Notes: generated by a model not told the origin, from the letters alone. DNA of 64,000 bases from an uncultured Chitinophaga sp. (GCA_964438995.1 CAYTMQ010000011.1:8416-72415), one strand, 5' to 3'. Positions 30,190 to 56,070 are shown, counted from the stretch's first letter. Numbers and translations are program-made.

Positions 30190-30575
30190 AGGTGGATTTT
30201 TTCTTGAGGAGAGAGAGGGATTATTATATGATCCCATTATGGGTAGGCTACAATTCAAAGGATAATCCAAATTGAAATCAATTTGGATTTTATGACTCTA
30301 ACTTATCACTTGAACCCTTGCGGGATTCAGATGAAAGTTTGAGCCATAAAAAAAGTCCAAGCTTTAGCTTGGACTATCATTTGAATTGCGGAGAGAGAGG
30401 GATTGGCTTCGCCGGTCTCGCCAAAACAGCCAATGTATTTCTTCCAATTAGTTTTTCACAATTGGCTGTTTTGGACTCGGCTCGAACCCCGGGGGTTCTC
30501 ATCCCTTTCTCTCTCCTATGCAAAAAAAAATCCAAGCATTAAGCTTGGATTTTTTCTTGCGGAGAGAGAGGGACA
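30190..30575. repeat. Complex repeat region upstream of the integrase: three degenerate ~175 bp tandem units. Each unit has an A-run/hairpin/T-run (tccaa..ttgga stems) and a GGAGAGAGAGGGA motif. Unit 2 forms a ~130 bp palindrome. Candidate attL with arm-type sites, or a MITE-like insertion.
   Basis: GGAGAGAGAGGGA direct at 30208-30220, 30390-30402, 30561-30573 and inverted at 30502-30516. Hairpins at 30262-30285, 30352-30383, 30530-30550. Perfect 12 bp inverted repeat AAAACAGCCAAT / ATTGGCTGTTTT at 30421-30432 and 30461-30472. The ORFs 30318..30542 and 30403..30600 are spurious. Confidence 0.5.
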
Positions 30576-30657
30576 CTCCGCTATACTCATATTTAATTGA
30601 TTTACAGACATTTATTTTATATAGTGTCATTTCAGTGCCAAATATTATATTTGTCCT

Positions 30658-31791
30658 ATGAAAAATTATCGGCTTTGTAAAATTTACAAGGGTGCTAAAA
30701 AAGGTATGCGCCCAACTCTAAACAATTGGTATGTTTACTACTACTTCTTTGATGGTGTCGAATGGAAACGATTCAGACTGAAAGAAGACATCAATACTGC
30801 TAAAACAATCACTGAAAGAACCCACAGAGCAAATGCGCTCAAAGAAGCAATGGATGAATTATTAATGGCCGGTTATAATCCGTTTAGGGATGACAATCGA
30901 ATAATCTTAAAGCAGTTTACCATGAAAGAAGGGATTGATTGGGCAATGTCAAGAAAGAAATTTGCGCACAAAACTCAACTTGATTTTAATTCAATTGTTA
31001 AGCACTTTCATGAAACTTCAGCAAAACTTGGTTATGGTAGTTTAGAATTAAAGAAAGTTACCAGGATAATTATTAGAGAGATCATTGAAAAAATGGTTGA
31101 ATCTAGAAATTTAGGTAATCATGCTTATTTGAAGTACAAAAACAATCTGGGCAATCTATTTGAAGAGCTTGTAAGTTGGGAGAAAATTGATTTTAATCCA
31201 TGTAGGTTTAAGACTACCATCAGAAAACCGAAGCCAAAGACAAAGATTCTATTAAGTGAGGACCAAAGAATGCTGATAAAAAATACTTTGCTTGAAAAAA
31301 ATCCAAACTTTTTCAATTATCTGATGTTTATTAATCTGACTGCATTAAGGCCAGTTGAAATACTTCGCTTAAAAGTCGAGGATATTGATTTAAAGAATTC
31401 TCGAATTATTATAAGGTCAGAAATCACAAAAGATAGCGAAGATAGGATAACCATCATTCCAAAAGCATTAGAACCTTATATCGATATTGATGCGCCAAAG
31501 CACTATTACTTATTTGGCCACGATTTTAAACCTCAAGAACGTAAAAAACCATTGTCTAGAGATAAGGCCACCCACTTATGGCAAGAATTAATCATTAAAG
31601 GACTAGGCATTGATTCTAAAATGTACTGGCTGAAACATCTCGGTTTAACTTCTATGAGACAACAAGGTATTGATCCCGAAATTGTTCAGTACCATGCAGG
31701 GCATTCTACCTATGAAATGACACAAGTTTACGTTTCAAGTGATAGGCCAGAAGTAGTAAAAGCAATTCGAGAAAGAAAAGGGGATTTCTAG
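30658..31791 (+). CDS. Tyrosine-type site-specific integrase (phage integrase family)
   Basis: C-terminal catalytic region with R...HxxR-like LGLTSMRQQG and YHAGHSTYEMTQVY (catalytic Tyr). N-terminal SAM-like DNA-binding part. A Bacteroidetes -7 promoter motif TAtaTTTG lies at 30646-30653. Confidence 0.85.
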   Translation: MKNYRLCKIYKGAKKGMRPTLNNWYVYYYFFDGVEWKRFRLKEDINTAKTITERTHRANALKEAMDELLMAGYNPFRDDNRIILKQFTMKEGIDWAMSRKKFAHKTQLDFNSIVKHFHETSAKLGYGSLELKKVTRIIIREIIEKMVESRNLGNHAYLKYKNNLGNLFEELVSWEKIDFNPCRFKTTIRKPKPKTKILLSEDQRMLIKNTLLEKNPNFFNYLMFINLTALRPVEILRLKVEDIDLKNSRIIIRSEITKDSEDRITIIPKALEPYIDIDAPKHYYLFGHDFKPQERKKPLSRDKATHLWQELIIKGLGIDSKMYWLKHLGLTSMRQQGIDPEIVQYHAGHSTYEMTQVYVSSDRPEVVKAIRERKGDF

Positions 31792-31912
31792 GTAAAGCAA
31801 AATGGACCATAAAATATGGTCCATTCTAACATGAAAAATTACCAACTTGTGTCAATAGTGAATACAAACATAGTTGATAGATTTTTAATTTAATTGCCAA
31901 TTTTATGACACT

Positions 31913-31950
31913 AAAAAAAGCCTATCAAATTAATGATAGGCTTTTAATTT
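31913..31950. terminator. Bidirectional intrinsic terminator-like hairpin (A-run, GCCTATCA-loop-TGATAGGC, T-run) between int and the tRNA
   Basis: aaaaaaagcctatcaaattaatgataggcttttaatttt read directly. Confidence 0.5.
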
Positions 31951-32133
31951 TGACCTACAAGGATTGGTCGGTTTCGTTGTTCTTTTAGGAGATGTTATCA
32001 TTAGTATCGCCCTTTGTAGTTTTCCATTGGCTAACCTTGCATTTACCACATCGAATCAATATTGAGAGGGACGCACAATATAGATTACAGCACTAACCAC
32101 TAATTAAACATTTTGTTCTCCACTTCAAATGTG

Positions 32134-32209
32134 TGGTTGCGAATATCGGACTCGAACCGATGAACTTCTGGTTATGAGCCAGACGAGATACCAACTTCTC
32201 TAATTCGCA
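32134..32209 (-). tRNA. tRNA with CAU anticodon (elongator tRNA-Met, or tRNA-Ile2 if lysidine-modified), 76 nt with encoded CCA
   Basis: Hand-folded cloverleaf: acceptor TGCGAAT/ATTCGCA 7 bp, D-arm GAGA-AGTTGGTA-TCTC, anticodon arm TCTGG-CTCATAA-CCAGA, variable AGTTC, T-arm ATCGG-TTCGAGT-CCGAT, discriminator A, CCA. U1-A72 is paired, so it is not an initiator. Confidence 0.85.
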
Positions 32210-32270
32210 CTACAAATATAAAAAAATGCGAGATTATTTCCAAACCTCGCTTTTTAAACATCAACAATTA

Positions 32271-34391
32271 CTATATCCCACTTATCTCAAAATATTGTAA
32301 AGCTCCACTATGTTCACAATTGTTCCAGAAGTAATACTTGCCATTAACAAATACAACTCCGCCACCATTGGCGTTTCCTGCTGCTTCTTCGCCTGCAATG
32401 GTATTCCAATTGGTTTTACCTCCTCTAAATAGAAGTTTTCCAGTTTGATCATATACAAAGAATAAATTTGTCTGACCTCCTGCACCCCCAAAGAACTCTC
32501 CAATGTACTTAACGAAAACTTTGCCTTTGCATGTCCAAACATTGTCAGCTCCTGCATACTGCATTATTTCGGATGTAGCAAAGAAGTCACCATCTGGATA
32601 AACTCTGCTTTCTCCAACTGCCTTGCTAGGCATTCCATTGTAAATGAATTTACCACTAACAACAAAAGTCAAATGGTATCCTTGATGAGATTTATGTGGC
32701 TGAAACGCAACCAAAGTATCTCCCATCATAGAGAATGTTACCGCTTTGTCAGTAGCGAATGCAGTTGTATTATCTGGTTTAAATTGACTATGCACTACCT
32801 CATTTTTAAACAAGGTGTACTGAAAGTCTTTAAGGGCATCAGAGTAATCTAAACTCAATCTCCAAACAACACCTTTGGTATCAATGTGAAGATTGGCATT
32901 CACTGGATATTCCTTAACTAACTCTGCTTTAGTGGTTAATTTAAAGAGTGTTGGGTATTCATAACCACCTAAGAACTTATTGATTGTGCAATATGTGACA
33001 CCATTAACAGTGACTAAATTTCTCAAAAGGTTTTTACCTTGATTGTATGGCTTAAACTCCTTTGGTAATCCATACGCCCAATTTTTTACAAGTGTATAAG
33101 ACTTGTTTTTGTAGTCATATTTGAACTCTAAAAATCCTGCTGTAACTCTGCTTGGGTCATTCCTATCAACAGAGCATGAATAGGTCATAGGTAAATAATG
33201 GATGTCGTATAAATAAACCCCATTGCTATCGTACACCAATACTCTGCAATTACCATTGTCGCAAACATAGATACGATTAGATTTGTCGATGTAAACACTG
33301 CCAATGTTCTCGTGCGTGTTGTAATCCTCCGAAAAGAAGGTATAATTATCAACTAATGCGCTTGACTGACCTTTACAAATAACTTTGCCGTTATAGGTAA
33401 CATCATTTGCCATTACAACACTACTAGCGCCCCTTGTAAAACTTATTTGAGGTGTGAATGTTGAAGTGCTTAAAAATTTACCATTTAAGTCGTATTTAGA
33501 AAGTGTTTTATCAGTATGGTAAAGGTTTATAGTCCCATTTACAACTTCAATCTTTGTAGGTCGTTTATTTGGATTGCTTTTATAAATACCAATTACTGAT
33601 TTGTAAGGATTGCTTTTATCTTGGTATGTGCACCTGGTTGATACACCACTTGAAAAAATTACTTCATTGTCTGACTTGTCAATAGCGATGACCATACAAT
33701 CTAAATTTGAAGAGTATCCACCATCATCATCTGTTGCAAAAGGATCATATCCTGCCCAAAATAAATAATTGTCAGTTTCAGCGAATGCAGTCACTTCCAT
33801 TACAAAGCCATTTGCAGGTGGTGGCATCACTTCATTTCGTTCCTTTGGATTGTTTATTGGAGATTTAATGACTGGACTTTTACCTTCTGGATAACCAACG
33901 GACATATAAAGGAATCCATTAAATTCTGCTACACATCTAATCGAGCGCAAACCTTTGAATTTCTTTGCACCATAATGCAACCCACTCGAATTATAGACAT
34001 TCCCAGTCCAATTATAGGAAGGTGTTGTAGGAAGTGGATTTGTAGGAATATTAATTATTCTCGGACCAACATAAACAACTGCTTCTTTTAATCCGCATTC
34101 CAATGTTTCATAAATAATCCATCTGTCCAAATAATCAGACTTGCTTGGTTGTAGAGTACCAGTTCCATCACTTTTAAACAATACTTTCCCAATACCACTT
34201 ATTGTTGTAGGAGTTATGGTAGTGGTTGCAGAAGTAGTACGCCTTACACAACTGATGTAGTGAAAGGATACCTTTTTTTTAAGGTTGAAAGTAACCTTGT
34301 TGGTGCCGTTGGTAAATATCGAATCTTGACAATGTAAACTAAAAGGCAAGATAGTTGCTATTATAGCAAAGATGTAAACTAATTTTTTCAT
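32271..34391 (-). CDS. Secreted NHL-repeat / beta-propeller protein (706 aa), a prophage cargo gene ('moron') candidate
   Basis: Signal peptide MKKLVYIFAIIATILPFSLHCQ. NHL-like repeats (IYVCDNGNCRVLVYDSNGVYLYD). Lies between the endolysin and the tRNA. Overlaps the endolysin stop by 4 nt, and a hairpin terminator follows at 32221-32256. Confidence 0.55.
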   Translation of the reverse strand: MKKLVYIFAIIATILPFSLHCQDSIFTNGTNKVTFNLKKKVSFHYISCVRRTTSATTTITPTTISGIGKVLFKSDGTGTLQPSKSDYLDRWIIYETLECGLKEAVVYVGPRIINIPTNPLPTTPSYNWTGNVYNSSGLHYGAKKFKGLRSIRCVAEFNGFLYMSVGYPEGKSPVIKSPINNPKERNEVMPPPANGFVMEVTAFAETDNYLFWAGYDPFATDDDGGYSSNLDCMVIAIDKSDNEVIFSSGVSTRCTYQDKSNPYKSVIGIYKSNPNKRPTKIEVVNGTINLYHTDKTLSKYDLNGKFLSTSTFTPQISFTRGASSVVMANDVTYNGKVICKGQSSALVDNYTFFSEDYNTHENIGSVYIDKSNRIYVCDNGNCRVLVYDSNGVYLYDIHYLPMTYSCSVDRNDPSRVTAGFLEFKYDYKNKSYTLVKNWAYGLPKEFKPYNQGKNLLRNLVTVNGVTYCTINKFLGGYEYPTLFKLTTKAELVKEYPVNANLHIDTKGVVWRLSLDYSDALKDFQYTLFKNEVVHSQFKPDNTTAFATDKAVTFSMMGDTLVAFQPHKSHQGYHLTFVVSGKFIYNGMPSKAVGESRVYPDGDFFATSEIMQYAGADNVWTCKGKVFVKYIGEFFGGAGGQTNLFFVYDQTGKLLFRGGKTNWNTIAGEEAAGNANGGGVVFVNGKYYFWNNCEHSGALQYFEISGI

Positions 34392-34864
34392 AATATTGGG
34401 TATGTGCTTTTAATTTTTGGGAGTGCGTTAAGTTCTTTGGTTGTATAACCAAATGTTTTCTGAAAGTGAGGATAGTCTTTTAATGTTTTGAAGTCTCCAC
34501 CCCATTCCCAACCAAACTCTTTAAATACTTTTACCACTTCCATCCAGTCGGGTATTTTATCTCCATCGAAATCTTCACCTCTGGACCAAACTGCTTTACC
34601 ACTAAAAATAATTGTGATATCAATGGCAAGTCCATAATTGTGATATGATTCACCGGCTCTTGCATTGGTTACAATTTGTCCTGGCATTTGTCTTCCTTTT
34701 GCATACAGATCATTCTGTTCTTTAAAACTTCTGAATGTATGAGTAAATCTACAATATGCAGGACCATTTAATCTCTTGCATATTTCTTCGTAGATTTTAG
34801 TTGCTTCTTCTTGAACTGAAGGATGAAGCAAACTAATTCTTGTTAATGTTACTTGATCGCTCAT
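34388..34864 (-). CDS. Endolysin, peptidase M15 family (L-alanyl-D-glutamate / VanY-like zinc peptidase)
   Basis: Zinc-binding SYHNYGLAIDI (H-x-x-G-x-A-x-D) and downstream DYPHFQ His motif. 158 aa. Adjacent to the holin-like gene. Confidence 0.8.
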   Translation of the reverse strand: MSDQVTLTRISLLHPSVQEEATKIYEEICKRLNGPAYCRFTHTFRSFKEQNDLYAKGRQMPGQIVTNARAGESYHNYGLAIDITIIFSGKAVWSRGEDFDGDKIPDWMEVVKVFKEFGWEWGGDFKTLKDYPHFQKTFGYTTKELNALPKIKSTYPIL

Positions 34865-35106
34865 TTTTTTAAATCTTTATTTTCAACTGGAAATTTACTT
34901 GGAGCTTCTGGTGCATATCCGTAAGCATCACAAACAATCTGTATAGCGTGTCCGCCAATTGTATAGAATATCATAATTAACAACATATCGTGTTCAGATA
35001 TGCCCCAATTACCTATTAATGCGGTTGATAACCCGCTAATGCCTATATAGGCGTATAATCGTCTGAAAATAGACAACCATTTTGGTGTTTTTGTTTTTCG
35101 TGCCAT
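34861..35106 (-). CDS. Holin-like small membrane protein (two predicted TM helices)
   Basis: 81 aa. TM segments LYAYIGISGLSTALIGNWGI and MLLIMIFYTIGGHAIQIVC, charged C-terminus. Immediately upstream of the endolysin with a 4-nt overlap. Confidence 0.5.
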   Translation of the reverse strand: MARKTKTPKWLSIFRRLYAYIGISGLSTALIGNWGISEHDMLLIMIFYTIGGHAIQIVCDAYGYAPEAPSKFPVENKDLKK

Positions 35107-35399
35107 TATTTTGATTTTAAATTAAATTCGTAGAGAGCTTTAGTGTTGTCTTTGATTACCTCATTCTGCATTTGCCACATCATCTGCTGCATTGCATCAA
35201 CTTTTCGATTGAGGTTAAAATTCTGATACGTTAAGACTGCAACCCATGCAACCAGTATCATGACCGCCAATCCTTTTGCGATTATTTCTTTTAAGATTAG
35301 CTTTTTTTCGTCGCTTGTTATTCCTATCATTGCTTTATAAGTACAAATACAAATCTTTGTCCGAGCATTCGGCCACAATTCTATACCCTCTTTTATCAC
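35106..35399 (-). CDS. Small single-TM protein of the lysis cassette (possible spanin/antiholin)
   Basis: 97 aa with one TM helix (GLAVMILVAWVAVLTY). Its position is the only other support. Confidence 0.35.
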   Translation of the reverse strand: MIKEGIELWPNARTKICICTYKAMIGITSDEKKLILKEIIAKGLAVMILVAWVAVLTYQNFNLNRKVDAMQQMMWQMQNEVIKDNTKALYEFNLKSK

Positions 35400-35847
35400 A
35401 TTGATTTTTAAATTCAGTTGGTGTCATTCTATACCAATTCTCCATGTTAAGAACTCTTGCAACAAACTCATAACATGTTGGATAATTCTTACATTTGGTT
35501 TTGTTGCCTATGAAAATACCTCTACCTAATAGCCATTTAGTGAAGTACCAAATGAGCATGAATAGCAAGTCTTCAAATCCGTAACGGACTTTTTTGAATA
35601 CCATCTTGTCAAACTCCTCTTTATTAAAATTGTCATCAGAAACATCAATCACTTGACATTGATAGTCATCTGGCCATAAATAAACCAGTGTTGAGATTAC
35701 TCCCTTAAAATCTGATTCATAAACATATCTCTTGTCCGCAATAGCTACATGGTGCCATCTATCTCCAGTTACTTGTCTGATGATGTGCGATACAATTCTT
35801 AATGGTTTCTTCCATGTGAATGGCTTATATACTCTTACGATTTTCAT
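35335..35847 (-). CDS. Hypothetical phage protein, possibly a permuted papain-like (His then Cys) hydrolase
   Basis: 170 aa. RWHHVAI ... NYPTCYEFV residue order. Weak inference only. Confidence 0.35.
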   Translation of the reverse strand: MKIVRVYKPFTWKKPLRIVSHIIRQVTGDRWHHVAIADKRYVYESDFKGVISTLVYLWPDDYQCQVIDVSDDNFNKEEFDKMVFKKVRYGFEDLLFMLIWYFTKWLLGRGIFIGNKTKCKNYPTCYEFVARVLNMENWYRMTPTEFKNQCDKRGYRIVAECSDKDLYLYL

Positions 35848-36407
35848 AATTGTACTAATTCATTGTTCATTGCTTTTGTTTTCAAGTCTTCCCAAACTTT
35901 AGGCAACTCGTTTTTTACTGTTTCATGTATTGGTTTATCCTGCTCATCTCTGAATGCTTGCCATAAGATATACGCTAAATCAACAGCCAATCCCCCGTTA
36001 TAATCAGTCAATGGCACGACAAAACCACCTAATTTAAATTGTTTAGCATCCCAAAATCCAAATACATCGTATTTAGAATCAATCACAACTCCTACTCCCA
36101 TAGGTGTTGGAGGTGTTGTATCTGGTTTGGTTAAGGTTGATATTTCAATTAAAGGCAAATCTTCAAGCCATGTGAAAATACTTTTAGCCTGGTTGATTTC
36201 TTCTTCACTTATAAAGAAGTCTCCAGAAACGTCTGCTCTTGGTCCTAATAATGTTCCGTCTGGCAATTCATAAAGGTATAACTGCCTAAATTGTTCTATT
36301 GTTAATAATGCTATTCTACTCATCTTCCTAATTGTGTTTCTAATGTATCTATTGCTGCATCTAATAAAGCTACTTGACTGTCTGATGCGCCATGAAAGTG
36401 AATCCAA
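35844..36407 (-). CDS. Hypothetical phage tail-associated protein
   Basis: 187 aa ORF co-oriented with and overlapping its neighbours in the distal tail/lysis region. Confidence 0.4.
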   Translation of the reverse strand: MDSLSWRIRQSSSFIRCSNRYIRNTIRKMSRIALLTIEQFRQLYLYELPDGTLLGPRADVSGDFFISEEEINQAKSIFTWLEDLPLIEISTLTKPDTTPPTPMGVGVVIDSKYDVFGFWDAKQFKLGGFVVPLTDYNGGLAVDLAYILWQAFRDEQDKPIHETVKNELPKVWEDLKTKAMNNELVQL

Positions 36408-37168
36408 ATACTTCTCTTTCTATCACTAAATTGAATGGCAGTACCTCCGTTGTTAACCGCACCTTCAATCAATATTTTAGGTGTCGTGTTTGTAAAAGTG
36501 TTACTTGCTTGAGTAACAGTATTGAATGGAGAACCATTTTTATATTGTTTATAGTTAGCGCTTGAATTTCTACTTATAAAGTATCTTCCAGTTGAATTGG
36601 TGTTGGTGCCAGTATTATTGGTTTGATCTACTAATCTTGATGTGAAATTTGAACCATTACGAGTGTACTGAAGCACGTTAGCAAATCCACCATCAATAAC
36701 CCCGAAATCCGCTTTAACGCCTGATGTATCAGTTTTTAACACGATACCGAATGACTGCGCATTTTGTTGGAAGGTATTACCGTCATAACCGAAAATAGTG
36801 GTCATATATCCAGTTGTTCCGTTAGGTAATGAACCAGTTCCGTCATGTGTCCATCCACCAACATAAGTTCCATCTGGATTGCCAGTTACTGCATTGTATC
36901 TGTGATATGTAGCAGTTCCACCAACTCTAAAGAATGCAAACTCCGAAACAGTTCCTAAATTATCTGCTCCTAAAGTTAATCCATAAATGTCTTTTACTGC
37001 AACAATAAAGGCATCGATATACTCCCATAACTGCTGACCAGTTCTTTCTTGTGCAGAACCAGTATTATATGTAGTAGAATCGTATGCAATACCTTTGTTA
37101 GTGAACAACCTTTTTGTTTCTGGTTGCCATCTTGATTTGCTGCCGTATATGTTAATTATTCTAGTCAC
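36320..37168 (-). CDS. Tail fibre/receptor-binding-like protein (Gly/Thr/Asn-rich)
   Basis: 282 aa, low-complexity T/N/G-rich beta-rich sequence typical of distal tail fibres. Confidence 0.4.
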   Translation of the reverse strand: MTRIINIYGSKSRWQPETKRLFTNKGIAYDSTTYNTGSAQERTGQQLWEYIDAFIVAVKDIYGLTLGADNLGTVSEFAFFRVGGTATYHRYNAVTGNPDGTYVGGWTHDGTGSLPNGTTGYMTTIFGYDGNTFQQNAQSFGIVLKTDTSGVKADFGVIDGGFANVLQYTRNGSNFTSRLVDQTNNTGTNTNSTGRYFISRNSSANYKQYKNGSPFNTVTQASNTFTNTTPKILIEGAVNNGGTAIQFSDRKRSIWIHFHGASDSQVALLDAAIDTLETQLGR

Positions 37169-38378
37169 GAATTCCGTTTAATTTTACAAATCCTGCACTT
37201 GTGCTTATAGTTCTTTTTACAACGATTGTGTCTGTATCTTCCAAAACCAATGGATTGGAGAATGCAGTAAATGAACCCCCATTTTTTGACAATGTAATTG
37301 TACCACTTAAACCATCATCTTCTATTGAGGTATATGTTCCGGCACTATCAGTGTCAATCGTAAATGATTCCATCTCCAATTCATCTTGTGAGAAGTGGAA
37401 TTTTAAAATGATGGTTTTATCAATGACATACTTTGTCTCAACTGCAGTCATTGGAGTTATACCCCAGTCACCATCAATATTTCTTTTAATAATGTTGTCC
37501 TGCTTTTCTTTAAATTCATAAGTAAAATTGGACTTCTTACTCAATGAATGATTGGTTACATCTTTGATATTACTTGGATAAACATTAAATCTTCTGAATA
37601 GATGTTGATTCAGTAAATTGTAATCAGTGATGTAAATATCGTTACCCAATATTCCATCCTCATTGATCACATCAAAAATGTATGCAGGTAAAAGCTCGGT
37701 TTCAAGAGTGTAAGTATTTTCAATTTTAGATTGAATTTGCTTAACCACACGATTTGAATCTTGATAGTTATCAATTACAAGTGTTGGTGTTTTATCTCCA
37801 AACTTACCTTTGATTCGTAGTGATTGATACCATCCAAGTCCAGTGTAATCAAAACCATTCATTATTGAACCGCTTTGATACCATTCAATTCTGATGGTGC
37901 CGTCTGCTCTTTCTGCATTGTATTCAACTACATGGAATTTATGTGATTCATACACTAGTGTAGTGCCTAATGATGTATGAGTAGTTTTGATGGTGTAATA
38001 ACCATATCCAAATGCTTGTTGAACTAAATCCCAATCAATCACAAATCCTTTATAATCGCTGTTTTCAAGTGAACCGAAATCGTAAAATGTACCATAGGTG
38101 TTAGAATTTAAAACTGCTACTTGAACTCCATCTTTTAGCAAAGTGTAGACAATTGTATCGCTTGATACAACTTTGGCTCTAATGAAAGACTTTGTGTCAT
38201 TTTGCCACCATGAACCACCATTTTTCACATATGCTTCTTCGATAAAATCACAACCATTGCATGCGCAAACCTCAAAACCTGGCGATTGACTTATTGCAGA
38301 AATCAATGTTGCAGATTGTGAAGATGCTATACCTAGTAAAGGCATCGGAAAAGCATTATACCATTGTGTTGTTATCAT
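37161..38378 (-). CDS. Tail/baseplate-associated protein
   Basis: 405 aa, downstream of the Tal-like giant protein, overlapping stops and starts. Confidence 0.4.
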   Translation of the reverse strand: MITTQWYNAFPMPLLGIASSQSATLISAISQSPGFEVCACNGCDFIEEAYVKNGGSWWQNDTKSFIRAKVVSSDTIVYTLLKDGVQVAVLNSNTYGTFYDFGSLENSDYKGFVIDWDLVQQAFGYGYYTIKTTHTSLGTTLVYESHKFHVVEYNAERADGTIRIEWYQSGSIMNGFDYTGLGWYQSLRIKGKFGDKTPTLVIDNYQDSNRVVKQIQSKIENTYTLETELLPAYIFDVINEDGILGNDIYITDYNLLNQHLFRRFNVYPSNIKDVTNHSLSKKSNFTYEFKEKQDNIIKRNIDGDWGITPMTAVETKYVIDKTIILKFHFSQDELEMESFTIDTDSAGTYTSIEDDGLSGTITLSKNGGSFTAFSNPLVLEDTDTIVVKRTISTSAGFVKLNGIRD

Positions 38379-41300
38379 TTTAAAATATTTCCAGTTGTAA
38401 AGTTGAATGTTGGGTCATTTGGAGTAAATACAAACCAATCATTATTGTTTTCTCCTGACCAATCGTTAATTATAAATTTTACCCAATAAGGTTTGATGTG
38501 ACCTAGCACAAATTCATTATCTCCAACTACAAATGCATGACATTGATTCTTTCTTTGTAGTGGACTTGATGAAAATCCTAATCCTGCTTTTCCATTTAGT
38601 TTCTCAACTCCTCCATACAATAGATTAGTTGCAATCATTGGAGTTTGTATAGTCCAATCATCAGATGAATTTGGACTTGCAACAGTTGAATAAACTCTAC
38701 TAATATGCCTTGCTCCGTCAGTTCCTAATGAAACATCATGGACCACTAAAAACACTGGATTTGAATCATCATCTATTGTAAGAATCTCAAATCCAACTGC
38801 AGCTAATAAATCAGCATCATTACCTGGTCCATCTTGATTTTCTGTATCACCTGAATTTCTGTAAACGTTGTATGAATTAGTATAATTAGCGAAGTTTGCT
38901 CTATCTGCAGGAGTTGTTACGCTTCCAGACGTTTGAGAATAAACCGCAATTTTGCCTTGTTCCCATTGGTTTGAATTTGGAGGTAAATCAAGATTCATTA
39001 CATAGATATTACCACCATAGAAATTTACATCAATTGGATATCTGCATTGAGAGTTTGCAGGAGAACCACTATCATAACACTTCCAGTCTAGTGTTGTCCA
39101 AGATGCTCCGTTGTAATAAAGGTGTTTGAACCCTCTTTGACCACCAATACTAGCTTGTGAATTGCCTATCCAGAAGTATGGTTTGCCATTTACTTGTCCC
39201 ATTTCTGGGTCAATTCTTATGCATGTGTATGTACCACCACCCAAGTTTGCTGAATAGATTCTTGTTTGCAAGTATGTAGAACCATTGTAGATGAATTCAT
39301 GGACCTCTGTTGCTGAACCAGTATAAGTAATTGCATAGAAATTAGGTTTTCCATTGGTCACAACATCAGAAACTACCATTTTGAAGTTCTGATAGGTGTA
39401 TAATGCACTTAAACTAATTGCTACTTCATTATCGATAAATCCATCAACTATTTCAGCTAATCGAAGTGAATTACTTACTGCAACTCCATTATCTGGACAA
39501 TTGAATAACAATACTTCGCTTTCACTTAATGTCTTAATGTCTCTTGCAATCCCATATCTAGGATATGAAGGTGTTCTTGACAATCTTGCTGAAATATTAT
39601 AGTTGCCCGAAATTTTGGTATAATCGATTAATGATTCAGTTATTATCTCGGTGCCAGTATTAGTGATCTTGGTGTAAGTTTCACCATTTATTGGTTTCAA
39701 AGGACTGTTTTTTGCCTTATCTCTGAATGAAGAAAGCTCTATAATTCCATAGCCTGATGAAAGCAGTTTGTCAAGTCTATGAACAACCCACTCGTCAGTA
39801 AATCCACTTGAATCTCCACTTTGAGGAGTAAATGTTATTACAAGTTTGGTGTCACCAGTCTTTAATATTGCACCTCCTAAATCGTTGTCATCAATATCAA
39901 AAGTTTGAATTAATGTTGACCATTCAGCAGGGTCATTACCATCTAAATCCCATCCATAAACTTTCAGTTGCGGAGAATAGTTAACGTATTTCGTTAACTT
40001 TTCTGTCAATTGTTTTACATCTGCATCAATAGCAAGTCGAATTTCATAGTTATTGCCTTCGTACCTCGATGCATCTTTACCCAATCCGTTTGAATCTAAT
40101 GAGGTATTGTAGAAAATTGTGTCTGCACCTGGCAACTTTATCCAACTTTGCCAGTCAAATTTCATTGAAAGAATAAGCTCAACTTCTTGGTAATCTCCAA
40201 CTGGGTCTTTGAAATTTACATAAATGCTATTGAATTGGTCGCCTGATGCCAATCTAAATTCTCTTTCAACATCTAATGTCAGTTTTTGATATGTACCTAT
40301 CTCAACTATGTTTGATAAATCGAATGAATACTCTTGCAATGAGAACTCCTCACCACTTACAGTATTATATGCAATCAATCGAGCTTTTAATGCATGCAGA
40401 TTCGCATTCAAGAACTTATTAAGGACCAAAGTACATGCATAGTTGAATCCATCTTGTTTCCAACCTTTATAGTCTGAATACCCTCCATTAGAGATATCCA
40501 TACCATGGTCATAGAATCTTTGGTTATAGAAATCTACTAGTCCTGCAACATCATTATTGATAACAAATTGATTCCAATCTGCTTGTAAAATAACTTTGTT
40601 GGATGTATCGGTGGCATTGTTATTACCAACTTGTACTCCTATGAAGTATTTATCTGAAACAACATCAAGTAAATCAGGATTGATCATCTCTTGTTCGGAT
40701 GATGAAATCTCGATATCGAACTCAAAATTTACTCTTGTTGCATCAACATAGTCAAATTTCACTCTTTTTATTCTCTCTGAACCGGTAGCTGAAATTGTAC
40801 CGCTCGACATGGTTGCTAGTAAAGAATCCCACAAGAAAGTAGATTGAAAACTATCTTTGTTTGATGAGTAAACAGAAAATGGCGCACCCCACCAGAAATA
40901 AACACCTAATTGATTGGTATTTGTTAATCCAGTTCCAGTAATATATCCGCTTACTTTCGTTTTTTTACCTAATTGAAGCCTATTAACCGCATCTCCAGTT
41001 TCAGTATCGGTGTAACTGCTTAAAGTTACAGAGTAGATGTTCTCAAATCCATTGAAATTTTCGTTAATCCATCCAACTGAACCCAACATTTCTTCATCTT
41101 GAAGCCTAACAGTAGTGTTAGGATTATTCATTGCTGAACGGAATTCGAATGTGCAAACGTGTTTTACTGATTTATCTCCTTCAAACTCTTCTGGACTTGT
41201 GCCAGAATTAAGCGCATTCAAGTATGATTCCAAGAACACTGGACTAATAACGAACTCTTGAGTTATCTCGTATTCATGAACATAATTAGTCGCAATTCCT

Positions 41301-41920
41301 AATGGATTGGATGATGATTTATACTCAACTGTGGCACCGCCCGACTTCCATGATTTTGAACCACTCATATTCTTCATGGTATGGACAGTTGGGGTTGTAG
41401 TGTCTATTGTTGAATAGTAAAAGCCTTGAATATCGTTAGTGTATGGACTTCTTACATCTAAAGCTCCGTCATTTGGCACAATAGCAGAGTTGTAAAGTAA
41501 TGCAGGGAACTTCGAAGCACATACTAGCGCATGGTCAGATTTATAGCCAACAGCACCAATTGCTGAACTAAATTGAATTTCAGTATCGTTAATTGCTAAA
41601 ATAGTATCAGTCCATTCAACTGATGCAGCATTGCTAGTATTTAAACCAGTATAATCACGAATAAAAGCGCATGATTGACCAACTGCGAAGCCTTCATCAA
41701 TCCATGAACCTGATTGTCTTCTTAATACATTCCCATTAAGAACCTCAAATTGATTGGCTGTATCAGCAATTGAAATCAATGCAGCTTGAACGCGAATAAC
41801 GGCCTTTACTTTCTCTCCAATAGAACCTTTTAGATGTGTTCCAAAATCGCTTGTATTGGATGAGAATGAAGTACCATTACCCCACTCGGAGAAATATTTT
41901 CTAGTTAATACTTGTATCAT
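38375..41920 (-). CDS. Large tail tip protein (Tal-like, tail-associated), 1181 aa
   Basis: Its position (third gene after the tape measure protein) and size match siphovirus Tal/tip proteins. No enzymatic motif was identified by eye. Confidence 0.5.
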   Translation of the reverse strand: MIQVLTRKYFSEWGNGTSFSSNTSDFGTHLKGSIGEKVKAVIRVQAALISIADTANQFEVLNGNVLRRQSGSWIDEGFAVGQSCAFIRDYTGLNTSNAASVEWTDTILAINDTEIQFSSAIGAVGYKSDHALVCASKFPALLYNSAIVPNDGALDVRSPYTNDIQGFYYSTIDTTTPTVHTMKNMSGSKSWKSGGATVEYKSSSNPLGIATNYVHEYEITQEFVISPVFLESYLNALNSGTSPEEFEGDKSVKHVCTFEFRSAMNNPNTTVRLQDEEMLGSVGWINENFNGFENIYSVTLSSYTDTETGDAVNRLQLGKKTKVSGYITGTGLTNTNQLGVYFWWGAPFSVYSSNKDSFQSTFLWDSLLATMSSGTISATGSERIKRVKFDYVDATRVNFEFDIEISSSEQEMINPDLLDVVSDKYFIGVQVGNNNATDTSNKVILQADWNQFVINNDVAGLVDFYNQRFYDHGMDISNGGYSDYKGWKQDGFNYACTLVLNKFLNANLHALKARLIAYNTVSGEEFSLQEYSFDLSNIVEIGTYQKLTLDVEREFRLASGDQFNSIYVNFKDPVGDYQEVELILSMKFDWQSWIKLPGADTIFYNTSLDSNGLGKDASRYEGNNYEIRLAIDADVKQLTEKLTKYVNYSPQLKVYGWDLDGNDPAEWSTLIQTFDIDDNDLGGAILKTGDTKLVITFTPQSGDSSGFTDEWVVHRLDKLLSSGYGIIELSSFRDKAKNSPLKPINGETYTKITNTGTEIITESLIDYTKISGNYNISARLSRTPSYPRYGIARDIKTLSESEVLLFNCPDNGVAVSNSLRLAEIVDGFIDNEVAISLSALYTYQNFKMVVSDVVTNGKPNFYAITYTGSATEVHEFIYNGSTYLQTRIYSANLGGGTYTCIRIDPEMGQVNGKPYFWIGNSQASIGGQRGFKHLYYNGASWTTLDWKCYDSGSPANSQCRYPIDVNFYGGNIYVMNLDLPPNSNQWEQGKIAVYSQTSGSVTTPADRANFANYTNSYNVYRNSGDTENQDGPGNDADLLAAVGFEILTIDDDSNPVFLVVHDVSLGTDGARHISRVYSTVASPNSSDDWTIQTPMIATNLLYGGVEKLNGKAGLGFSSSPLQRKNQCHAFVVGDNEFVLGHIKPYWVKFIINDWSGENNNDWFVFTPNDPTFNFTTGNILK

Positions 41921-42089
41921 TGAGTTTCTTAATTGTGGCCATTATTTTATCCATATCTGCATCAGCAATTGACTTTTCAATGTTGTCAATTTCATTCAAT
42001 ATCAATTCTCTGTTTGGACTAGATAAACTTTTTGCGCTTTTTCTAGTTTCATCGAGTTGTGTTTTTATCATTTTTGCAAAATCTTCCAT
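41901..42089 (-). CDS. Small hypothetical phage protein (62 aa)
   Basis: ORF between the Dit-like and Tal-like genes. It overlaps the Tal start by 20 nt and could alternatively be a misplaced start region. Confidence 0.25.
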   Translation of the reverse strand: MEDFAKMIKTQLDETRKSAKSLSSPNRELILNEIDNIEKSIADADMDKIMATIKKLNDTSIN

Positions 42090-43867
42090 TAGTTCTCTAT
42101 GATTGTTTCAGTAAAATTATCAGTGTATTTTTCGAATATCTTATACGATACAATCGCATAGTCATCACTCATTTTCCAGTTAAGTTTTAAGAATTGGCCA
42201 TCTTTACCATCAGATGTTTTGAAGTAAGATGACTTATTGGTTTTCAAGTAATCCAAAAAGGAGAATGGTATTTTTACATTCTCATAAACTCTTGCTTGTG
42301 TATATTCTGGATTGGTTTTGAAGGACCTCCAATAATGGTAATTGTTGTAAAGTGCTTTAGCCGACATCAAATCTCTATGGTTTTGAGGTATCAATCCGTT
42401 TTGTAGCACAATCAATTTAGGTATATTGAAAGAGTTTTGAGATATGATCAATCGGCCTTTACCTTCATTGATTTTTTCAGCAAATGTTTTACCTCCAAAC
42501 AATTTAATTACCAAATCAACTAGAGAGGTTAAAACCTTTAAAGTTTGTTCAGCAACGCTTAAATTATTTCTTCTATTACCAAGCGACATTGGTATTCTTA
42601 CCTCTTCAAAATTCTTCAGCAAATCAAATTGAGGGTCTTCTTCAAGTCTGTTAGCAACTCTAGTGATTACCTCATAACTAACACCTCGCTCATATCTATC
42701 TTTCTCTTCATCCTTTTTCTTTGAATCAAATGGAGTATTTCTTGCATTTGGCATTGTGTACTCATCAGATGGATCATATTGAAACGTCAGCAAGAAATTT
42801 GCTTTCATTTCATTAGTATTTAAAGTGTATTCTTCTGCAAGTACATCTGGTAGAACAAATGTGCTTAAATCTCTGATATTCTTTTCCGCTTTGATTATCA
42901 GTTTTTTTGCGCCTAAATCATTTGTTTGCATCACTGGTTTCGCTCTAAATAACTTTAGAACCAATTCAAACATTTCAGATACTTGATATCCGTAATCAGA
43001 TGAATTTGGAATGCCCTCATCTTTGCGATTCTTTCTTATTTTATCATCAACTTTTGACGGCAAGTAAACGCAATAATCAAGCTCTGGGATATCAGATTCT
43101 AGTGGAATATTGTAGTAATCCAATGCTCTTTCAAGTGCTGTTCTTAATTTAATACCCTTGTAAATTGTTGGTTTTGGGAATAAATTGTCAAATAATGTTT
43201 TAGTCAATCTTATAATTGCCACAAGCATTGCAGCATAGTAGGCAATGATTAACAGAGAATAAGCCAACATCTTAAAAAATTCAGCAGGCTTTTGAAGTGG
43301 AGCTGACAATGCAGTTACTATTGCATCTATTTTCTTTTGAGTAAATGTTTTAGAGAATTCAGTTACTTGTTGAGTTATTAGAAAAATTGAAATAGCTGCC
43401 ATTGCAGTTTCAGTGGTATCAAATTTCTTTCTAATGACAACTGGAACATCTGTATAATGCTCTTGGTCAATAAATCCTTTTGGACCACTTTGTTCTGCTA
43501 AAAATCCATAAGAAATTGCTTTAAGTTGTGAATCAATTAAATCTAATCCCTCATCAGGTTTGATTTTAACAGCAATCTCTACTGGACTGATTACTCTTAA
43601 TCCATCACATAAATCAAGTTTACAATTCCATATCTTATATTCACCTTTTGATGAAATGCCTATTGTGAACAATATCGCTTGGAATGGACCATATAATTCA
43701 ATGAAATCAAAAATGATTTTTGCTTCACGATTTACGAAAACAAACTCATCAACATCTAATTCTGGTTGAACATCATTACCAAATGAGGATTCAAATTTAA
43801 TGTCCATCCAGTTTTTAGGAGGGTCACATTGAATGCGATTTAATTCAAAGTATAATTCGTACTTCAT
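42089..43867 (-). CDS. Distal tail protein (Dit-like), 592 aa
   Basis: Immediately downstream of the tape measure gene with a 4-nt overlap, the canonical Dit position. Confidence 0.45.
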   Translation of the reverse strand: MKYELYFELNRIQCDPPKNWMDIKFESSFGNDVQPELDVDEFVFVNREAKIIFDFIELYGPFQAILFTIGISSKGEYKIWNCKLDLCDGLRVISPVEIAVKIKPDEGLDLIDSQLKAISYGFLAEQSGPKGFIDQEHYTDVPVVIRKKFDTTETAMAAISIFLITQQVTEFSKTFTQKKIDAIVTALSAPLQKPAEFFKMLAYSLLIIAYYAAMLVAIIRLTKTLFDNLFPKPTIYKGIKLRTALERALDYYNIPLESDIPELDYCVYLPSKVDDKIRKNRKDEGIPNSSDYGYQVSEMFELVLKLFRAKPVMQTNDLGAKKLIIKAEKNIRDLSTFVLPDVLAEEYTLNTNEMKANFLLTFQYDPSDEYTMPNARNTPFDSKKKDEEKDRYERGVSYEVITRVANRLEEDPQFDLLKNFEEVRIPMSLGNRRNNLSVAEQTLKVLTSLVDLVIKLFGGKTFAEKINEGKGRLIISQNSFNIPKLIVLQNGLIPQNHRDLMSAKALYNNYHYWRSFKTNPEYTQARVYENVKIPFSFLDYLKTNKSSYFKTSDGKDGQFLKLNWKMSDDYAIVSYKIFEKYTDNFTETIIEN

Positions 43868-46215: not shown

Positions 46216-46771
46216 TTATGTATGAATAAAATTCAAGGACAGTCACTTCTTTTGGATTGATTCTGTATCCTTGAGATTTTGATATTTTCGCAATTATTTT
46301 GTTGTATTCAGTTTGTTTTAGTTCTCCTTTTTTCTCTAGTTTTTTCAGTTCTATTTCTAAATGTGTAAGATTTATTGATGATGATTCTATTGCACATTCC
46401 AATTTTAAAAATGCAATGCGTTTAGTCATGTTCAGAAAGTCCAAGTATTCTTTATTTAGGCCAATGCGCTCTATAAACTCATCATATATCATGTCATAGA
46501 TGATAACTATTACCCTATCCTCTAAAAATGCGTAGACTATGCCTAATAATGAGAAAACTACCCCTAACCATACATTGACATAAAACATAGGTATTAAGGA
46601 TAGATAATAAATTGCTGCTATAGCTAATCTATTCCTGGTCAATTGTTTCTTATCATTAGTTCTATGAAGTTCAAACCAATTACCAATTGGCAAGGTTGAA
46701 ATACTCATATAGTATTTAAGACTTAATATACTTTTTAAGATTCGATATGAGCTTTGTTTTAACTTCATCAA
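46208..46771 (-). CDS. Membrane protein encoded between the tail chaperone and TMP. Either a moron (HK97 gp15-like superinfection exclusion candidate) or the +1-frame T extension of a G/GT chaperone pair.
   Basis: Two clear TM helices (LAIAAIYYLSLIPMFYVNVWLGVVFSLLGIVYAFL). Overlaps the upstream ORF by 56 nt in the +1 frame. An alternative start MSIS at 46708 avoids the overlap. Confidence 0.4.
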   Translation of the reverse strand: MMKLKQSSYRILKSILSLKYYMSISTLPIGNWFELHRTNDKKQLTRNRLAIAAIYYLSLIPMFYVNVWLGVVFSLLGIVYAFLEDRVIVIIYDMIYDEFIERIGLNKEYLDFLNMTKRIAFLKLECAIESSSINLTHLEIELKKLEKKGELKQTEYNKIIAKISKSQGYRINPKEVTVLEFYSYING

Positions 46772-47353: not shown

Positions 47354-47355
47354 AC

Positions 47356-49796: not shown

Positions 49797-49800
49797 GGGT

Positions 49801-50220: not shown

Positions 50221-50231
50221 TTTAGTGTTGA

Positions 50232-53699: not shown

Positions 53700-53763
53700 T
53701 GTACTACAAAGTACATAAGATTAATTTGTTTTAAAATGCCAAATTCATGCCAAGTAACTGCCA

Positions 53764-55065: not shown

Positions 55066-55149
55066 TTTATAGTAGTATTTGCTATCAATGTATCAAGTCC
55101 TTTCATTATTCTTTTATGAGCAGATGAACATCGAAATGAGTTGACATTC

Positions 55150-55356: not shown

Positions 55357-55382
55357 ACTTTGGTAGTATATACTACTATGTT

Positions 55383-55877: not shown

Positions 55878-55879
55878 AA

Positions 55880-56068: not shown

Positions 56069-56070
56069 AC

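What the first reader, a model, noticed from the sequence alone, without database searches (positions are those of the whole stretch)
30190..30657. Integrase is preceded by a highly structured tandem-repeat region (GGAGAGAGAGGGA x4, three tccaa/ttgga hairpins, 130 bp palindrome): candidate attL with arm-type sites, or a MITE
The 470 bp upstream of int is non-coding. It is built from about three degenerate 175 bp units, each with an A-run/hairpin/T-run followed by TTCTTG-N-GGAGAGAGAGGGA. One further copy of the motif is inverted. Unit 2 is a near-perfect long palindrome (30390-30516) that includes a perfect 12 bp inverted repeat AAAACAGCCAAT/ATTGGCTGTTTT. Reiterated direct and inverted short motifs immediately next to an integrase gene are what arm-type Int-binding sites look like in attP/attL. 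The alternative is a miniature inverted-repeat element with GGAGAGAGAGGGA termini, or an array of small terminator-bearing sRNA genes.
Basis: seen in the sequence. Interest (0 to 1): 0.6.

Follow-up and report, generated by a model that had tools for sequence, protein, structure and literature searches.

The report
Prophage attL plus tRNA-linked RtT-like repeats
The repeat-rich stretch in front of the integrase is the tail end of a serine tRNA gene that a prophage split when it integrated, together with two tandem copies of a little-understood structured element (related to E. coli RtT RNA) that follows serine and tyrosine tRNA genes in many bacterial phyla.

Summary
In detail: there are three exact GGAGAGAGAGGGA copies plus one inverted copy, three hairpins, roughly 175-bp degenerate units and a strongly folding 127-nt element.

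The motif is the reverse complement of the 3' end of tRNA-Ser. A 17-nt core (30557-30573) recurs at the far prophage end. There, on Logan contigs reaching about 9.7 kb past the window, it is fused to the rest of a tRNA-Ser T-arm. So this is attL of a roughly 43-kb prophage integrated into tRNA-Ser.

The motif copies are not arm-type sites, because they lie on the host side of the core. Better arm-site candidates (GTGTCAwww, GTGCCAAA) lie at 30624-30642 and recur in the attP of related phages.

The "palindrome" (30390-30516, minus strand) belongs to a family found 0-45 nt downstream of tRNA-Ser genes in at least seven phylum-level lineages. It shares its architecture with the E. coli tyrT 178-bp repeat, RtT RNA:
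- an inverted copy of the tRNA 3' end;
- AUGAGAA, a hairpin and GGUUCGA;
- variable hairpins;
- a direct copy of the tRNA 3' end.

A covariance model built only from Ser-linked copies finds the window element (34.9 bits) and all four E. coli RtT units. Rfam's own RtT model gives the window element only 16 bits against a cut-off of 45. The attL is ordinary. The element is a distant RtT variant of unknown function.

The parts
30557..30573 (-). attL core. On the minus strand it reads TCCCTCTCTCTCCG+CAA, the displaced last 14 nt of tRNA-Ser plus 3 nt of trailer. The same 17 nt occur at attR.
   Evidence: attR on Logan contigs L034, L047 and L050 reads ...GTCCGGGGGTTCGAATCCCTCTCTCTCCGCAA|aaattagt. 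The composite attB sequence exists as an intact tRNA-Ser(TGA) plus terminator in L042 and L043.
30520..30560 (-). Native terminator-like hairpin of the tRNA-Ser gene (A-run, TCCAAGC stem, T-run). It forms the spacer between the tRNA end and RtT-like unit 1.
   Evidence: Inverted repeat I4, 18-nt arms, 94% complementary. An equivalent hairpin spacer follows the tRNA-Ser gene in most of the 13 other loci.
30390..30516 (-). RtT-like element, unit 1 (intact). Closing helix: 30502-30516 with 30390-30402. AUGAGAA: 30496-30502. Hairpin GAACCC/GGGUUC: 30484-30498. GGUUCGAG: 30481-30488. Long hairpin: 30421-30434 with 30461-30474.
   Evidence: Folds at -57.7 kcal/mol, z = -6.3 on the minus strand. Model R2, built from Ser-linked elements only, scores 34.9 bits, E = 5e-5, on the minus strand against 23.0 bits on the plus strand. 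Rfam RtT aligns end to end on the minus strand but scores only 16 bits.
30386..30402 (-). Second exact copy of the 17-nt att core. It is the 3' end of unit 1, a direct copy of the tRNA-Ser 3' end.
   Evidence: Read directly from the sequence and the motif search.
30347..30375 (-). Terminator-like hairpin plus T-run after unit 1.
   Evidence: Terminator scan: 9-bp stem with tail TTTTTTATGG on the minus strand.
30221..30348 (-). RtT-like unit 2 (decayed). It keeps GAATCCC-GCA-AGGGTTCAAG and an inner hairpin at 30264-30289, but has lost the 5' strand of the closing helix.
   Evidence: Unit 1 against unit 2 alignment score 117.5, versus 60 +/- 7.7 for shuffles. Not found by model R2 at E <= 5.
30193..30220 (-). 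Third copy of the tRNA-Ser 3' end (one mismatch in the 17-nt core) plus the first 15 nt of the tRNA spacer. It is the start of a truncated third unit.
   Evidence: 28-nt direct repeat, 96% identical to 30546-30573.
30574..30657 (+). Phage-derived P' arm of attL. Candidate arm-type Int sites: GTGTCATTT (30624-30632) and GTGCCAAA (30635-30642).
   Evidence: The same two motifs recur on both sides of the attP core in related phages L045 and L046, and in the P arm at attR.
30658..31791 (+). Tyrosine integrase of the prophage.
   Evidence: Pfam PF00589, E = 7e-17. PHROG 1 integrase, E = 5e-33.
30574..64000 (.). Prophage body. It continues about 9.7 kb beyond the window to attR and the tRNA-Ser gene.
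   Evidence: Endolysin and phage PHROG families. RecT, NinB, HNH and an S24 repressor lie beyond the window on L033, L034 and L047.

Best explanation
The 470 bp are the 3' flank of a tRNA-Ser gene on the minus strand. A roughly 43-kb temperate phage cut this flank off from its gene.

Integration. The phage's tyrosine integrase recombined an attP core with the tRNA gene. That core is a copy of the last 14 nt of tRNA-Ser plus 3 nt. The phage-borne copy now completes the tRNA at attR, beyond the window. The original 3' end, with the gene's own terminator, was left at attL (30557-30573 and 30520-30560).

The rest of the region. Downstream lie about 2.1 tandem RtT-like repeat units. One is intact (30390-30516), one is decayed (30221-30348), and a third is only a 28-nt start. 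Each unit ends in a direct copy of the tRNA 3' end. The intact unit begins with an inverted copy of it. The two ends therefore pair into a 13-14-bp helix whose sequence is that of the stacked acceptor and T stems of the neighbouring tRNA.

Inferred by analogy with E. coli rtT RNA:
- The unit is transcribed in the tRNA direction.
- It is released from the tRNA transcript by tRNA-processing enzymes that recognise this tRNA-like helix.
- It acts as a structured RNA of still unknown role.
- Tandem units arise by unequal recombination between the repeated tRNA 3' ends.

Shown here: the att core duplication, the tRNA identity, the unit structure, family membership by model search, and covariation of the internal hairpins.
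Inferred: transcription, processing, function, and the mode of unit amplification.
For: Integration site:
- attL and attR share the 17-nt core. At attR the core continues as GGGGGTTCGAA, a T-arm, in three independent samples.
- The composite attB matches intact tRNA-Ser(TGA) genes in L042 and L043.
- attP of phages whose Int is 53-55% identical carries the same tRNA-Ser end.
- Host genes lie to the left and phage genes to the right.

The element as a family:
- The unbiased pattern scan returned about 125-nt elements. In 13 loci a tRNA-Ser gene lies 0-45 nt upstream on the same strand.
- Model searches added further copies in Chlorobium and Fibrobacter.

Link to E. coli RtT:
- The E. coli tyrT/tyrV repeats have the same layout, and their end sequences match tRNA-Tyr.
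- Model R2, built only from Ser-linked copies, finds the window element on the minus strand (34.9 bits, E = 5e-5).
- R2 also finds exactly the four places in E. coli that Rfam calls RtT, at 31-34 bits.

Structure:
- In alignment A4, 92.4% of cells are paired and 31 of 43 pairs change on both sides. No shuffle of 500 reaches this. Slid controls give 38-53% paired.
- In Chlorobium the closing helix follows the CCCTCCCTCTCC variant of its own tRNA-Ser(GGA).

Background: rtT RNA is reported as a processed product of the tyrT transcript (PMC3318445; PMC4986893).
Against: - Rfam's RtT model gives the window element only 16 bits against a cut-off of 45. It gives no hit at E <= 0.1 on the Ser-linked copies in L031 and L009. 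The link to RtT is therefore remote and rests on my own model, whose E-values are rough.
- The interior of the window element is one long hairpin nested in a stem. The gammaproteobacterial copies have four hairpins.
- Alignment A4 was fitted to the model structure, which inflates the pairing counts.
- The strand signal from G-U against A-C pairs is weak: 14 against 8.
- No expression data exist. In the lysogen the units are 43 kb away from the tRNA promoter.
- The full tRNA-Ser gene at attR was never seen, because every contig stops inside it.
- A close relative (L038, 97% MBL protein identity) is colinear only up to window position 30126. Beyond that point it carries other genes and no tRNA-Ser or RtT-like block. 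No same-species empty site was obtained.
- Two Bacteroidota tRNA-Ser loci have no such element.
Confidence: 0.8

Rival explanations
1. The reiterated GGAGAGAGAGGGA copies are arm-type binding sites for the integrase within attL.
For: The copies are reiterated, direct and inverted, within 370 bp next to int.
Against: - Arm-type sites lie in the phage-derived P and P' arms. The extra copies at 30390, 30502 and 30208 are on the host side of the core.
- The same arrangement follows tRNA-Ser genes in 13 loci with no integrase at the junction.
- attP of related phages holds one copy of the motif, not several. It carries other reiterated motifs, GTGCCAAA and GTGTCAwww, on both arms.
Confidence: 0.04
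2. The 127-nt element is a MITE with GGAGAGAGAGGGA terminal inverted repeats that happened to land next to the integrase.
For: It has terminal inverted repeats of 13-15 nt, is small, and is not coding.
Against: - No other copy lies in the 64 kb, by motif search or by model.
- In other genomes the copies are found only downstream of tRNA-Ser, always on the tRNA strand, at 0-45 nt, or as tandem units.
- The 'TIR' sequence equals the neighbouring tRNA end and changes with it: Tyr in E. coli, and the CCCTCCCTCTCC variant in Chlorobium.
- No target-site duplication other than the tRNA end itself.
Confidence: 0.04
3. The units are relics of earlier integrations at this tRNA-Ser hot spot. They would be att scars, or integrase-less cis-mobilisable elements flanked by att cores, rather than a functional RNA. 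The extra cores would be leftover attL/attR sites.
For: - Each unit is bounded by direct copies of the 17-nt core: 30557-30573, 30386-30402, and 30204-30220 with one mismatch.
- tRNA-Ser is clearly an integration target here and in L025, where a zeta-toxin island leaves the same layout.
- The close relative L038 lacks the whole block at this position.
Against: - Scars would not keep a conserved architecture and covarying hairpins across Bacillota, Patescibacteria, Pseudomonadota, Chlorobium, Fibrobacter and Bacteroidota.
- The E. coli counterpart is a known stable RNA.
- No copy of the motif or of the GGATGAGAACCC...GGGTTCGA signature was found in 2.9 million viral contigs.
Confidence: 0.1
4. 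The hairpins are selected at the DNA level. They might be folded single-strand recombination sites like integron attC or CTX attP, or replication or termination signals, not RNA.
For: - Covariation cannot tell RNA from single-stranded DNA.
- G-U against A-C counts are only 14 against 8.
- The element reconstitutes a duplex copy of the att core when folded.
Against: - Model scores are consistently higher on the tRNA strand.
- The E. coli homologue is a detected RNA.
- No integron-type integrase is present, and the local integrase is a phage type with a conventional attP.
Confidence: 0.04

Closest known systems
RtT RNA / 178-bp repeats of the E. coli tyrT-tyrV operon (rttR; Rfam RF00391)
   Same: - Lies directly downstream of a tRNA gene with a long variable arm (class II), on the same strand, in tandem units of about 175-180 bp.
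- Each unit ends with a direct copy of the tRNA 3' end and starts its structured part with an inverted copy of it.
- Both share GGAUGAGAAC, a short hairpin and GGUUCGA, followed by variable hairpins.
- A model built from Ser-linked elements recovers all four E. coli RtT units.
   Different: - Linked to tRNA-Ser rather than tRNA-Tyr, so the closing helix has a different sequence.
- The interior is one long nested hairpin instead of four hairpins.
- The host is a Bacteroidota organism. The best named relatives of the flanking gene are Saprospiraceae and Chitinophagales.
- Scores 16 bits against Rfam's cut-off of 45.
- No tpr-like ORF was examined.
Phage and island integration into the 3' end of tRNA genes by tyrosine integrases (attB within the T-arm/acceptor region, with the element carrying a replacement 3' end)
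   Same: - A 17-nt core is duplicated at both prophage ends.
- int lies next to attL.
- The tRNA is completed by the phage copy at attR.
- The displaced fragment and the native terminator remain at attL.
   Different: Nothing unusual in the integration itself. The only twist is that the host flank already held two more copies of the core, because of the RtT-like units.
Cis-mobilisable elements (CIMEs) and tandem accretion at att sites
   Same: Short integrase-less segments are bounded by direct att-core copies, in tandem with a complete integrative element.
   Different: The segments belong to a conserved structured family found without any integrative element nearby. No evidence of mobilisation was found, and the viral contigs hold no copies.
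MITEs
   Same: Small, non-coding, with terminal inverted repeats.
   Different: Not dispersed. Fixed position and orientation relative to a tRNA gene. The 'TIR' equals the tRNA end.

Membership tests
Prophage attL at a tRNA gene | Identical core sequence at both ends of the prophage | tested here: met
   The 17 nt TTGCGGAGAGAGAGGGA occur at 30557-30573 and at the right end on L034, L047 and L050.
Prophage attL at a tRNA gene | The core is the 3' end of a tRNA gene, and the intact gene sits at the opposite junction | tested here: inconclusive
   At attR the core continues into GGGGGTTCGAA and GTCC, identical to the tRNA-Ser(TGA) 3' part in L042. Every contig stops 31 nt into the tRNA, so the whole gene was not seen.
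Prophage attL at a tRNA gene | Integrase gene adjacent to an att site, and related phages carry the same core in attP | tested here: met
   int starts 84 nt from the core. attP of L045 has GCGGAGAGAGAGGGATT and attP of L046 has GCGGAGAAAGAGGGA.
Prophage attL at a tRNA gene | Empty site (attB) in a non-lysogenic strain of the same species | tested here: inconclusive
   The composite attB was found only in other Bacteroidota. The closest relative, L038, diverges already at 30126 and has no tRNA-Ser there.
Arm-type Int-binding sites (for the GGAGAGAGAGGGA motif) | Reiterated motif located in the phage-derived P/P' arms and present in attP | tested here: not met
   The extra copies lie on the host side. 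Related attP regions hold a single copy. GTGCCAAA and GTGTCAwww do meet this criterion.
RtT RNA (Rfam RF00391) | Score at or above Rfam's gathering cut-off (45 bits) | tested here: not met
   16 bits, E = 0.66 to 3, full-length alignment on the minus strand. As a positive control, the E. coli units score 133-137 bits.
RtT RNA (Rfam RF00391) | Immediately downstream of a tRNA gene, on the same strand, in tandem units ending with a copy of the tRNA 3' end | tested here: met
   With the prophage removed, the tRNA-Ser end is 44 nt upstream of the element on the minus strand. The units are 171 and 182 nt, and each ends in TCCCTCTCTCTCC.
RtT RNA (Rfam RF00391) | Conserved GGAUGAGAAC ... GGUUCGA core closed by a helix between an inverted and a direct copy of the tRNA end | tested here: met
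   The window minus strand reads GGGAUGAGAACCCCCGGGGUUCGAG. The Rfam alignment matches GGAUGAGAACC and AAUCC. Compare the E. coli sequence.
RtT RNA (Rfam RF00391) | Stable RNA processed out of the tRNA primary transcript | not testable with these tools
   No expression data. Known for E. coli and A. pleuropneumoniae only from the literature.
Ser-linked RtT-like elements (family defined here, model R2) | Significant match to a covariance model built from 14 Ser-linked copies, with the best strand being the tRNA strand | tested here: met
   Window 30386-30514 (-): 34.9 bits, E = 5e-5. Plus strand: 23.0 bits. E-values from this shortened calibration are rough.
MITE | Multiple dispersed copies with target-site duplications | tested here: not met
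   The window holds a single locus. In 20 other loci the copies occur only downstream of tRNA-Ser. Whole genomes were not searchable.

The most novel reading that the evidence does not exclude
RtT is not an enterobacterial curiosity. It would be one branch of a very widespread family of structured elements that trail tRNA genes (Ser and Tyr seen here). This study found copies in Bacillota, Patescibacteria, Pseudomonadota, Bdellovibrionota, Chlorobium, Fibrobacter and Bacteroidota.

The closing helix of these elements is kept identical to the acceptor/T-stem end of the neighbouring tRNA. Two consequences would follow:
- The element acts as a tRNA-end mimic for tRNA-processing or tRNA-targeting factors.
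- It also supplies extra copies of the att core used by tRNA-integrating phages, as decoy or secondary sites, or as hitch-hiking cassettes.
Probability: 0.3. Interest if true: 0.7.

Novelty: new variant of a known kind. Interest (0 to 1): 0.5.

Why it matters
For annotating this window, the result fixes the left prophage boundary at 30557-30573. It names the target gene as tRNA-Ser. It also removes the idea of an unusual att architecture.

The more general point concerns rtT RNA, which has lacked a function since 1991. In Rfam it is detected only among close relatives of the E. coli copies. Here, relatives were found behind tRNA-Ser genes in many phyla. They have covarying hairpins and a terminal helix that follows the sequence of the adjacent tRNA.

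That gives a comparative handle on what the RNA must conserve: a mimic of the tRNA acceptor/T-stem end, plus AUGAGAA and GGUUCGA. It also suggests concrete tests, namely RNase P and 3'-end processing, TruB, CCA addition, and interference with tRNA-targeting integrases or nucleases.

Finally, it warns annotators that several copies of a tRNA 3' end near an integrase need not be several att sites.

Tried and rejected
Searches that found nothing:
- ARAGORN and Rfam at gathering score found nothing in 30190-30657. The permissive Rfam hits were chance matches to terminator-bearing sRNAs and miRNAs, apart from the weak RtT hit.
- BLAST of the region against 50,697 phage records gave no match.
- Viral-contig scans for TTCTTGNGGAGAGAGAGGGA and for GGATGAGAACCC..GGGTTCGA gave no match.
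- The integrase protein found no relative in the viral contigs.

Readings considered and dropped:
- A hammerhead-like reading of GAUGAGAAC...GGUUCGA was considered by eye. The GAA after stem II is not conserved, and Rfam finds no ribozyme.
- A degenerate or intron-bearing tRNA-Ser reading of 30390-30516 was rejected. There is no cloverleaf, and the two ends form one continuous 13-14-bp helix.

Partial or failed attempts:
Only the 14-sequence model R2 did.
- Attempts to reach the DNA beyond the tRNA-Ser gene at attR failed, because all Logan contigs stop inside the tRNA.
- The empty-site search gave only other species.
- The closest relative (L038) has a different neighbourhood from window position 30126 onward. 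This is unexplained.
- The literature searches found no description of Ser-linked RtT-like elements. The library lacks most subscription journals, and Bösl & Kersten 1991 was not readable.

Full report
**1. The observation**

The region 30190-30657 lies between a host metallo-beta-lactamase-fold hydrolase gene (28996-30039, minus strand) and a tyrosine integrase gene (30658-31791, plus strand).

- GGAGAGAGAGGGA occurs exactly at 30208, 30390 and 30561. An inverted 2-mismatch copy lies at 30502-30514. The window has 6 matches at up to 2 mismatches against 0.42 expected, and no shuffle of 100 reaches 6.
- The motif is embedded in a 28-nt direct repeat at 30193-30220 and 30546-30573 (96% identical). 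Unit spacings are 182 and 171 nt. The three tccaa/ttgga hairpins and the perfect 14-bp inverted repeat are present.
- The 30390-30516 stretch folds far better than shuffles, z = -6.
The stretch is not a near-perfect palindrome. Only its ends, one short hairpin and one long hairpin are self-complementary.

**2. What the motif is**

Read on the minus strand, the motif is TCCCTCTCTCTCC followed by G. That is the T-stem and acceptor 3' strands plus the discriminator base of bacterial tRNA-Ser.

- No tRNA gene is detected in the region.
- To the right of int lie an endolysin and phage structural genes.
- Logan contigs identical to the window extend about 9.7 kb past its right end. They carry RecT, NinB, HNH and an S24 repressor.
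- Three samples end in ...TTTTTGCGGAGAGAGAGGGATTCGAACCCCCGGAC. This is the same core, now continuous with a tRNA T-arm.
- attL and attR share exactly 17 nt, TTGCGGAGAGAGAGGGA (30557-30573).
- Joining the tRNA side of attR to the host side of attL gives GGTTCGAATCCCTCTCTCTCCGCAAGAAAAAA. This sequence occurs in two metagenomic contigs as the 3' end of an intact tRNA-Ser(TGA) followed by a terminator.
- Phages whose integrase is 53-58% identical were found in the cI-attP-int configuration. The attP of L045 contains GCGGAGAGAGAGGGATT, and that of L046 contains GCGGAGAAAGAGGGA.

Together these results make this attL of a roughly 43-kb prophage integrated into the 3' end of a tRNA-Ser gene. The gene reads on the minus strand, from beyond the window.

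**3. Arm-type sites**

The other copies of the motif lie on the bacterial side of the core, so they cannot be P or P' arm sites of this phage. The phage-derived arm (30574-30657) holds GTGTCATTT (30624-30632) and GTGCCAAA (30635-30642). The same two motifs recur on both sides of the core in the attP of L045 and L046, and in the P arm at attR. These are the better candidates for arm-type sites.

**4. The 127-nt element**

A scan of one genome per species for GGAGAGAGAGGGA-N(90-120)-TCTCTCTCC returned 24 loci.

- Some hits were tRNA-Ser genes read backwards.
- Sixteen were elements of about 115-140 nt with the same ends.
- In 13 of these, ARAGORN and Rfam place a tRNA-Ser gene 0-45 nt upstream on the same strand. 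The anticodons are GGA, TGA, GCT or CGA. The tRNA and the element are usually separated by a terminator-like hairpin, and weaker tandem copies often follow.
- The hosts are Bacillota, several Patescibacteria, Gamma- and Zetaproteobacteria, and Oligoflexia. Model searches added Chlorobium and Fibrobacter.

The common layout, read in the tRNA direction, is:
- an inverted copy of the tRNA 3' end (GGAGAGAGAGGG);
- AUGAGAA (or AUUCGAA);
- a short hairpin (GAACC/GGUUC);
- GGUUCGA(C);
- variable hairpins;
- (A)AU, then a direct copy of the tRNA 3' end (CCCUCUCUCUCC, followed by GCCA where CCA is encoded).

The window element fits this layout on its minus strand. With the prophage removed, it sits 44 nt downstream of the tRNA-Ser end.

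**5. Relation to RtT**

The weak, full-length Rfam hit to RtT on the minus strand (16 bits) prompted a look at the E. coli tyrT-tyrV locus.

- Its 178-bp repeats read GGGGAAGG-AUGAGAA-GCUUCGACCAAGG-UUCGAC, then four hairpins, then UAAUCCUUCCCCCACCACCA.
- That is the same layout, with the ends matching tRNA-Tyr.
- The gammaproteobacterial Ser-linked copies even share the CCC(C)-GMA-GGG(G) hairpin and the UGA...GAR flanks.

Two covariance models were built.
- R1, built from two Ser-linked copies, collected 14 confident copies.
- On their alignment, 92.4% of cells pair and 31 of 43 pairs change on both sides. No shuffle of 500 reaches this. Slid controls give 38-53% paired. The caveat is that this alignment was fitted to the model.
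- R2, built from these 14 copies, scores the window element at 34.9 bits (E = 5e-5) on the minus strand and 23.0 bits on the plus strand.
- R2 also finds four places in the E. coli locus at 31-34 bits. These are exactly the four places that Rfam's RtT model calls at 133-137 bits.
- Rfam's RtT model itself does not reach the Ser-linked copies.
- In Chlorobium the closing helix follows the CCCTCCCTCTCC variant of its own tRNA-Ser(GGA).

I conclude that the element is a distant relative of RtT that lies outside the family as Rfam delimits it.

**6. Unit structure in the window (minus strand)**

- Unit 1 runs 30573-30403: tRNA-end copy, terminator spacer, then the intact element.
- Unit 2 runs 30402-30221. 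It is a diverged copy, with alignment score 117.5 against 60 +/- 7.7 for shuffles. It keeps the GAAUCCC-GCA-AGGGUUC hairpin and an inner hairpin, but has lost the 5' strand of the closing helix.
- Unit 3 is only its first 28 nt (30220-30193).
It also parallels the tandem RtT units that follow tyrV in E. coli.
- As a result, the 17-nt att core occurs twice more on the host side: exactly at 30386-30402, and with one mismatch at 30204-30220.

**7. Mechanism**

Shown:
- the integration site;
- the tRNA identity of the motif;
- the tandem unit structure;
- family membership by model search;
- conserved, covarying hairpins.

Inferred from E. coli rtT RNA (reported as a processed product of the tyrT transcript with a possible role in the starvation response):
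- transcription in the tRNA direction;
- release by tRNA-processing enzymes that recognise the helix mimicking the stacked acceptor and T stems;
- amplification of units by unequal recombination between the tRNA-end copies.

The function remains unknown.

**8. Open points**

- The full tRNA gene at attR was not seen.
- The closest relative found (97% identical hydrolase) is colinear only up to position 30126. Beyond that it carries TfoX_N and other genes, without any tRNA-Ser or RtT-like block. No same-species empty site is available.
- Two other Bacteroidota tRNA-Ser loci lack the element.
- The strand signal from wobble pairs is weak.
- A Rheinheimera locus repeats the window's layout: a foreign segment with a zeta-toxin gene, then a displaced tRNA-Ser fragment, a terminator and an RtT-like element. 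Separation of the element from its tRNA by an island is therefore not unique to this window.

**9. Verdict**

The attL is real but ordinary. The motif copies are neither arm-type sites nor a MITE. The interesting part is the RtT-like element. It is a new, distant variant of a known but functionally unexplained tRNA-linked RNA, and part of a much wider distribution than Rfam records.

Noticed in passing
window 32134-32209 (-): A tRNA-Met(CAT) gene lies inside the prophage, between int and the tail/lysis block. It is presumably phage-encoded, and no RtT-like element follows it.
   Followed up: partly
window 30624-30642; L045 2715-3003; L046 1000-1225; L034 1-200: GTGTCAwww and GTGCCAAA recur on both arms of attP in related phages and in the P' and P arms of this prophage. 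They are candidate arm-type integrase sites.
   Followed up: partly
L025 6480-7750 (Rheinheimera aquimaris NZ_JAJAVQ010000003.1): The layout matches the window. Foreign DNA with a zeta-toxin gene abuts a displaced tRNA-Ser fragment (CTCTCTCCCGCCA), followed by a terminator and an RtT-like element.
   Followed up: partly
window 30126/30127; L038 1-1298: A contig from a close relative (hydrolase 97% identical, about 94% DNA identity) stops being colinear at 30126. It continues with TfoX_N, polyketide-cyclase and glyoxalase genes instead of the RtT-like units, the prophage or a tRNA-Ser gene. Unexplained.
   Followed up: partly
window 28862; right end about 9.7 kb beyond the window: All Logan assemblies of the lysogen break at the same two points, window 28862 and inside the tRNA-Ser gene. 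Two short contigs end at 30490 and 30520, inside the RtT-like element. This suggests repeats or population heterogeneity at these points.
   Followed up: no
L037 1567-1683 (-) (E. coli K-12, between tyrT and tyrV): The tyrT-tyrV spacer holds a fourth RtT unit. It is found by Rfam (132.9 bits) and by my Ser-derived model, in addition to the three units after tyrV.
   Followed up: yes
L031 622-777 (+): The Rfam family sX4 (a Xanthomonas sRNA) gives a sub-threshold hit (42 bits, cut-off 70). The hit spans the tRNA-Ser gene and its spacer just upstream of the RtT-like element in a Lysobacterales genome.
   Followed up: no
L044 2790-3003: In one related phage (Int 58% identical) the attP region carries a tRNA 3' end (TTCGAATCCCTAGCTCTCCGCA). 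Its orientation relative to int is the opposite of that in the window and in L045 and L046.
   Followed up: no
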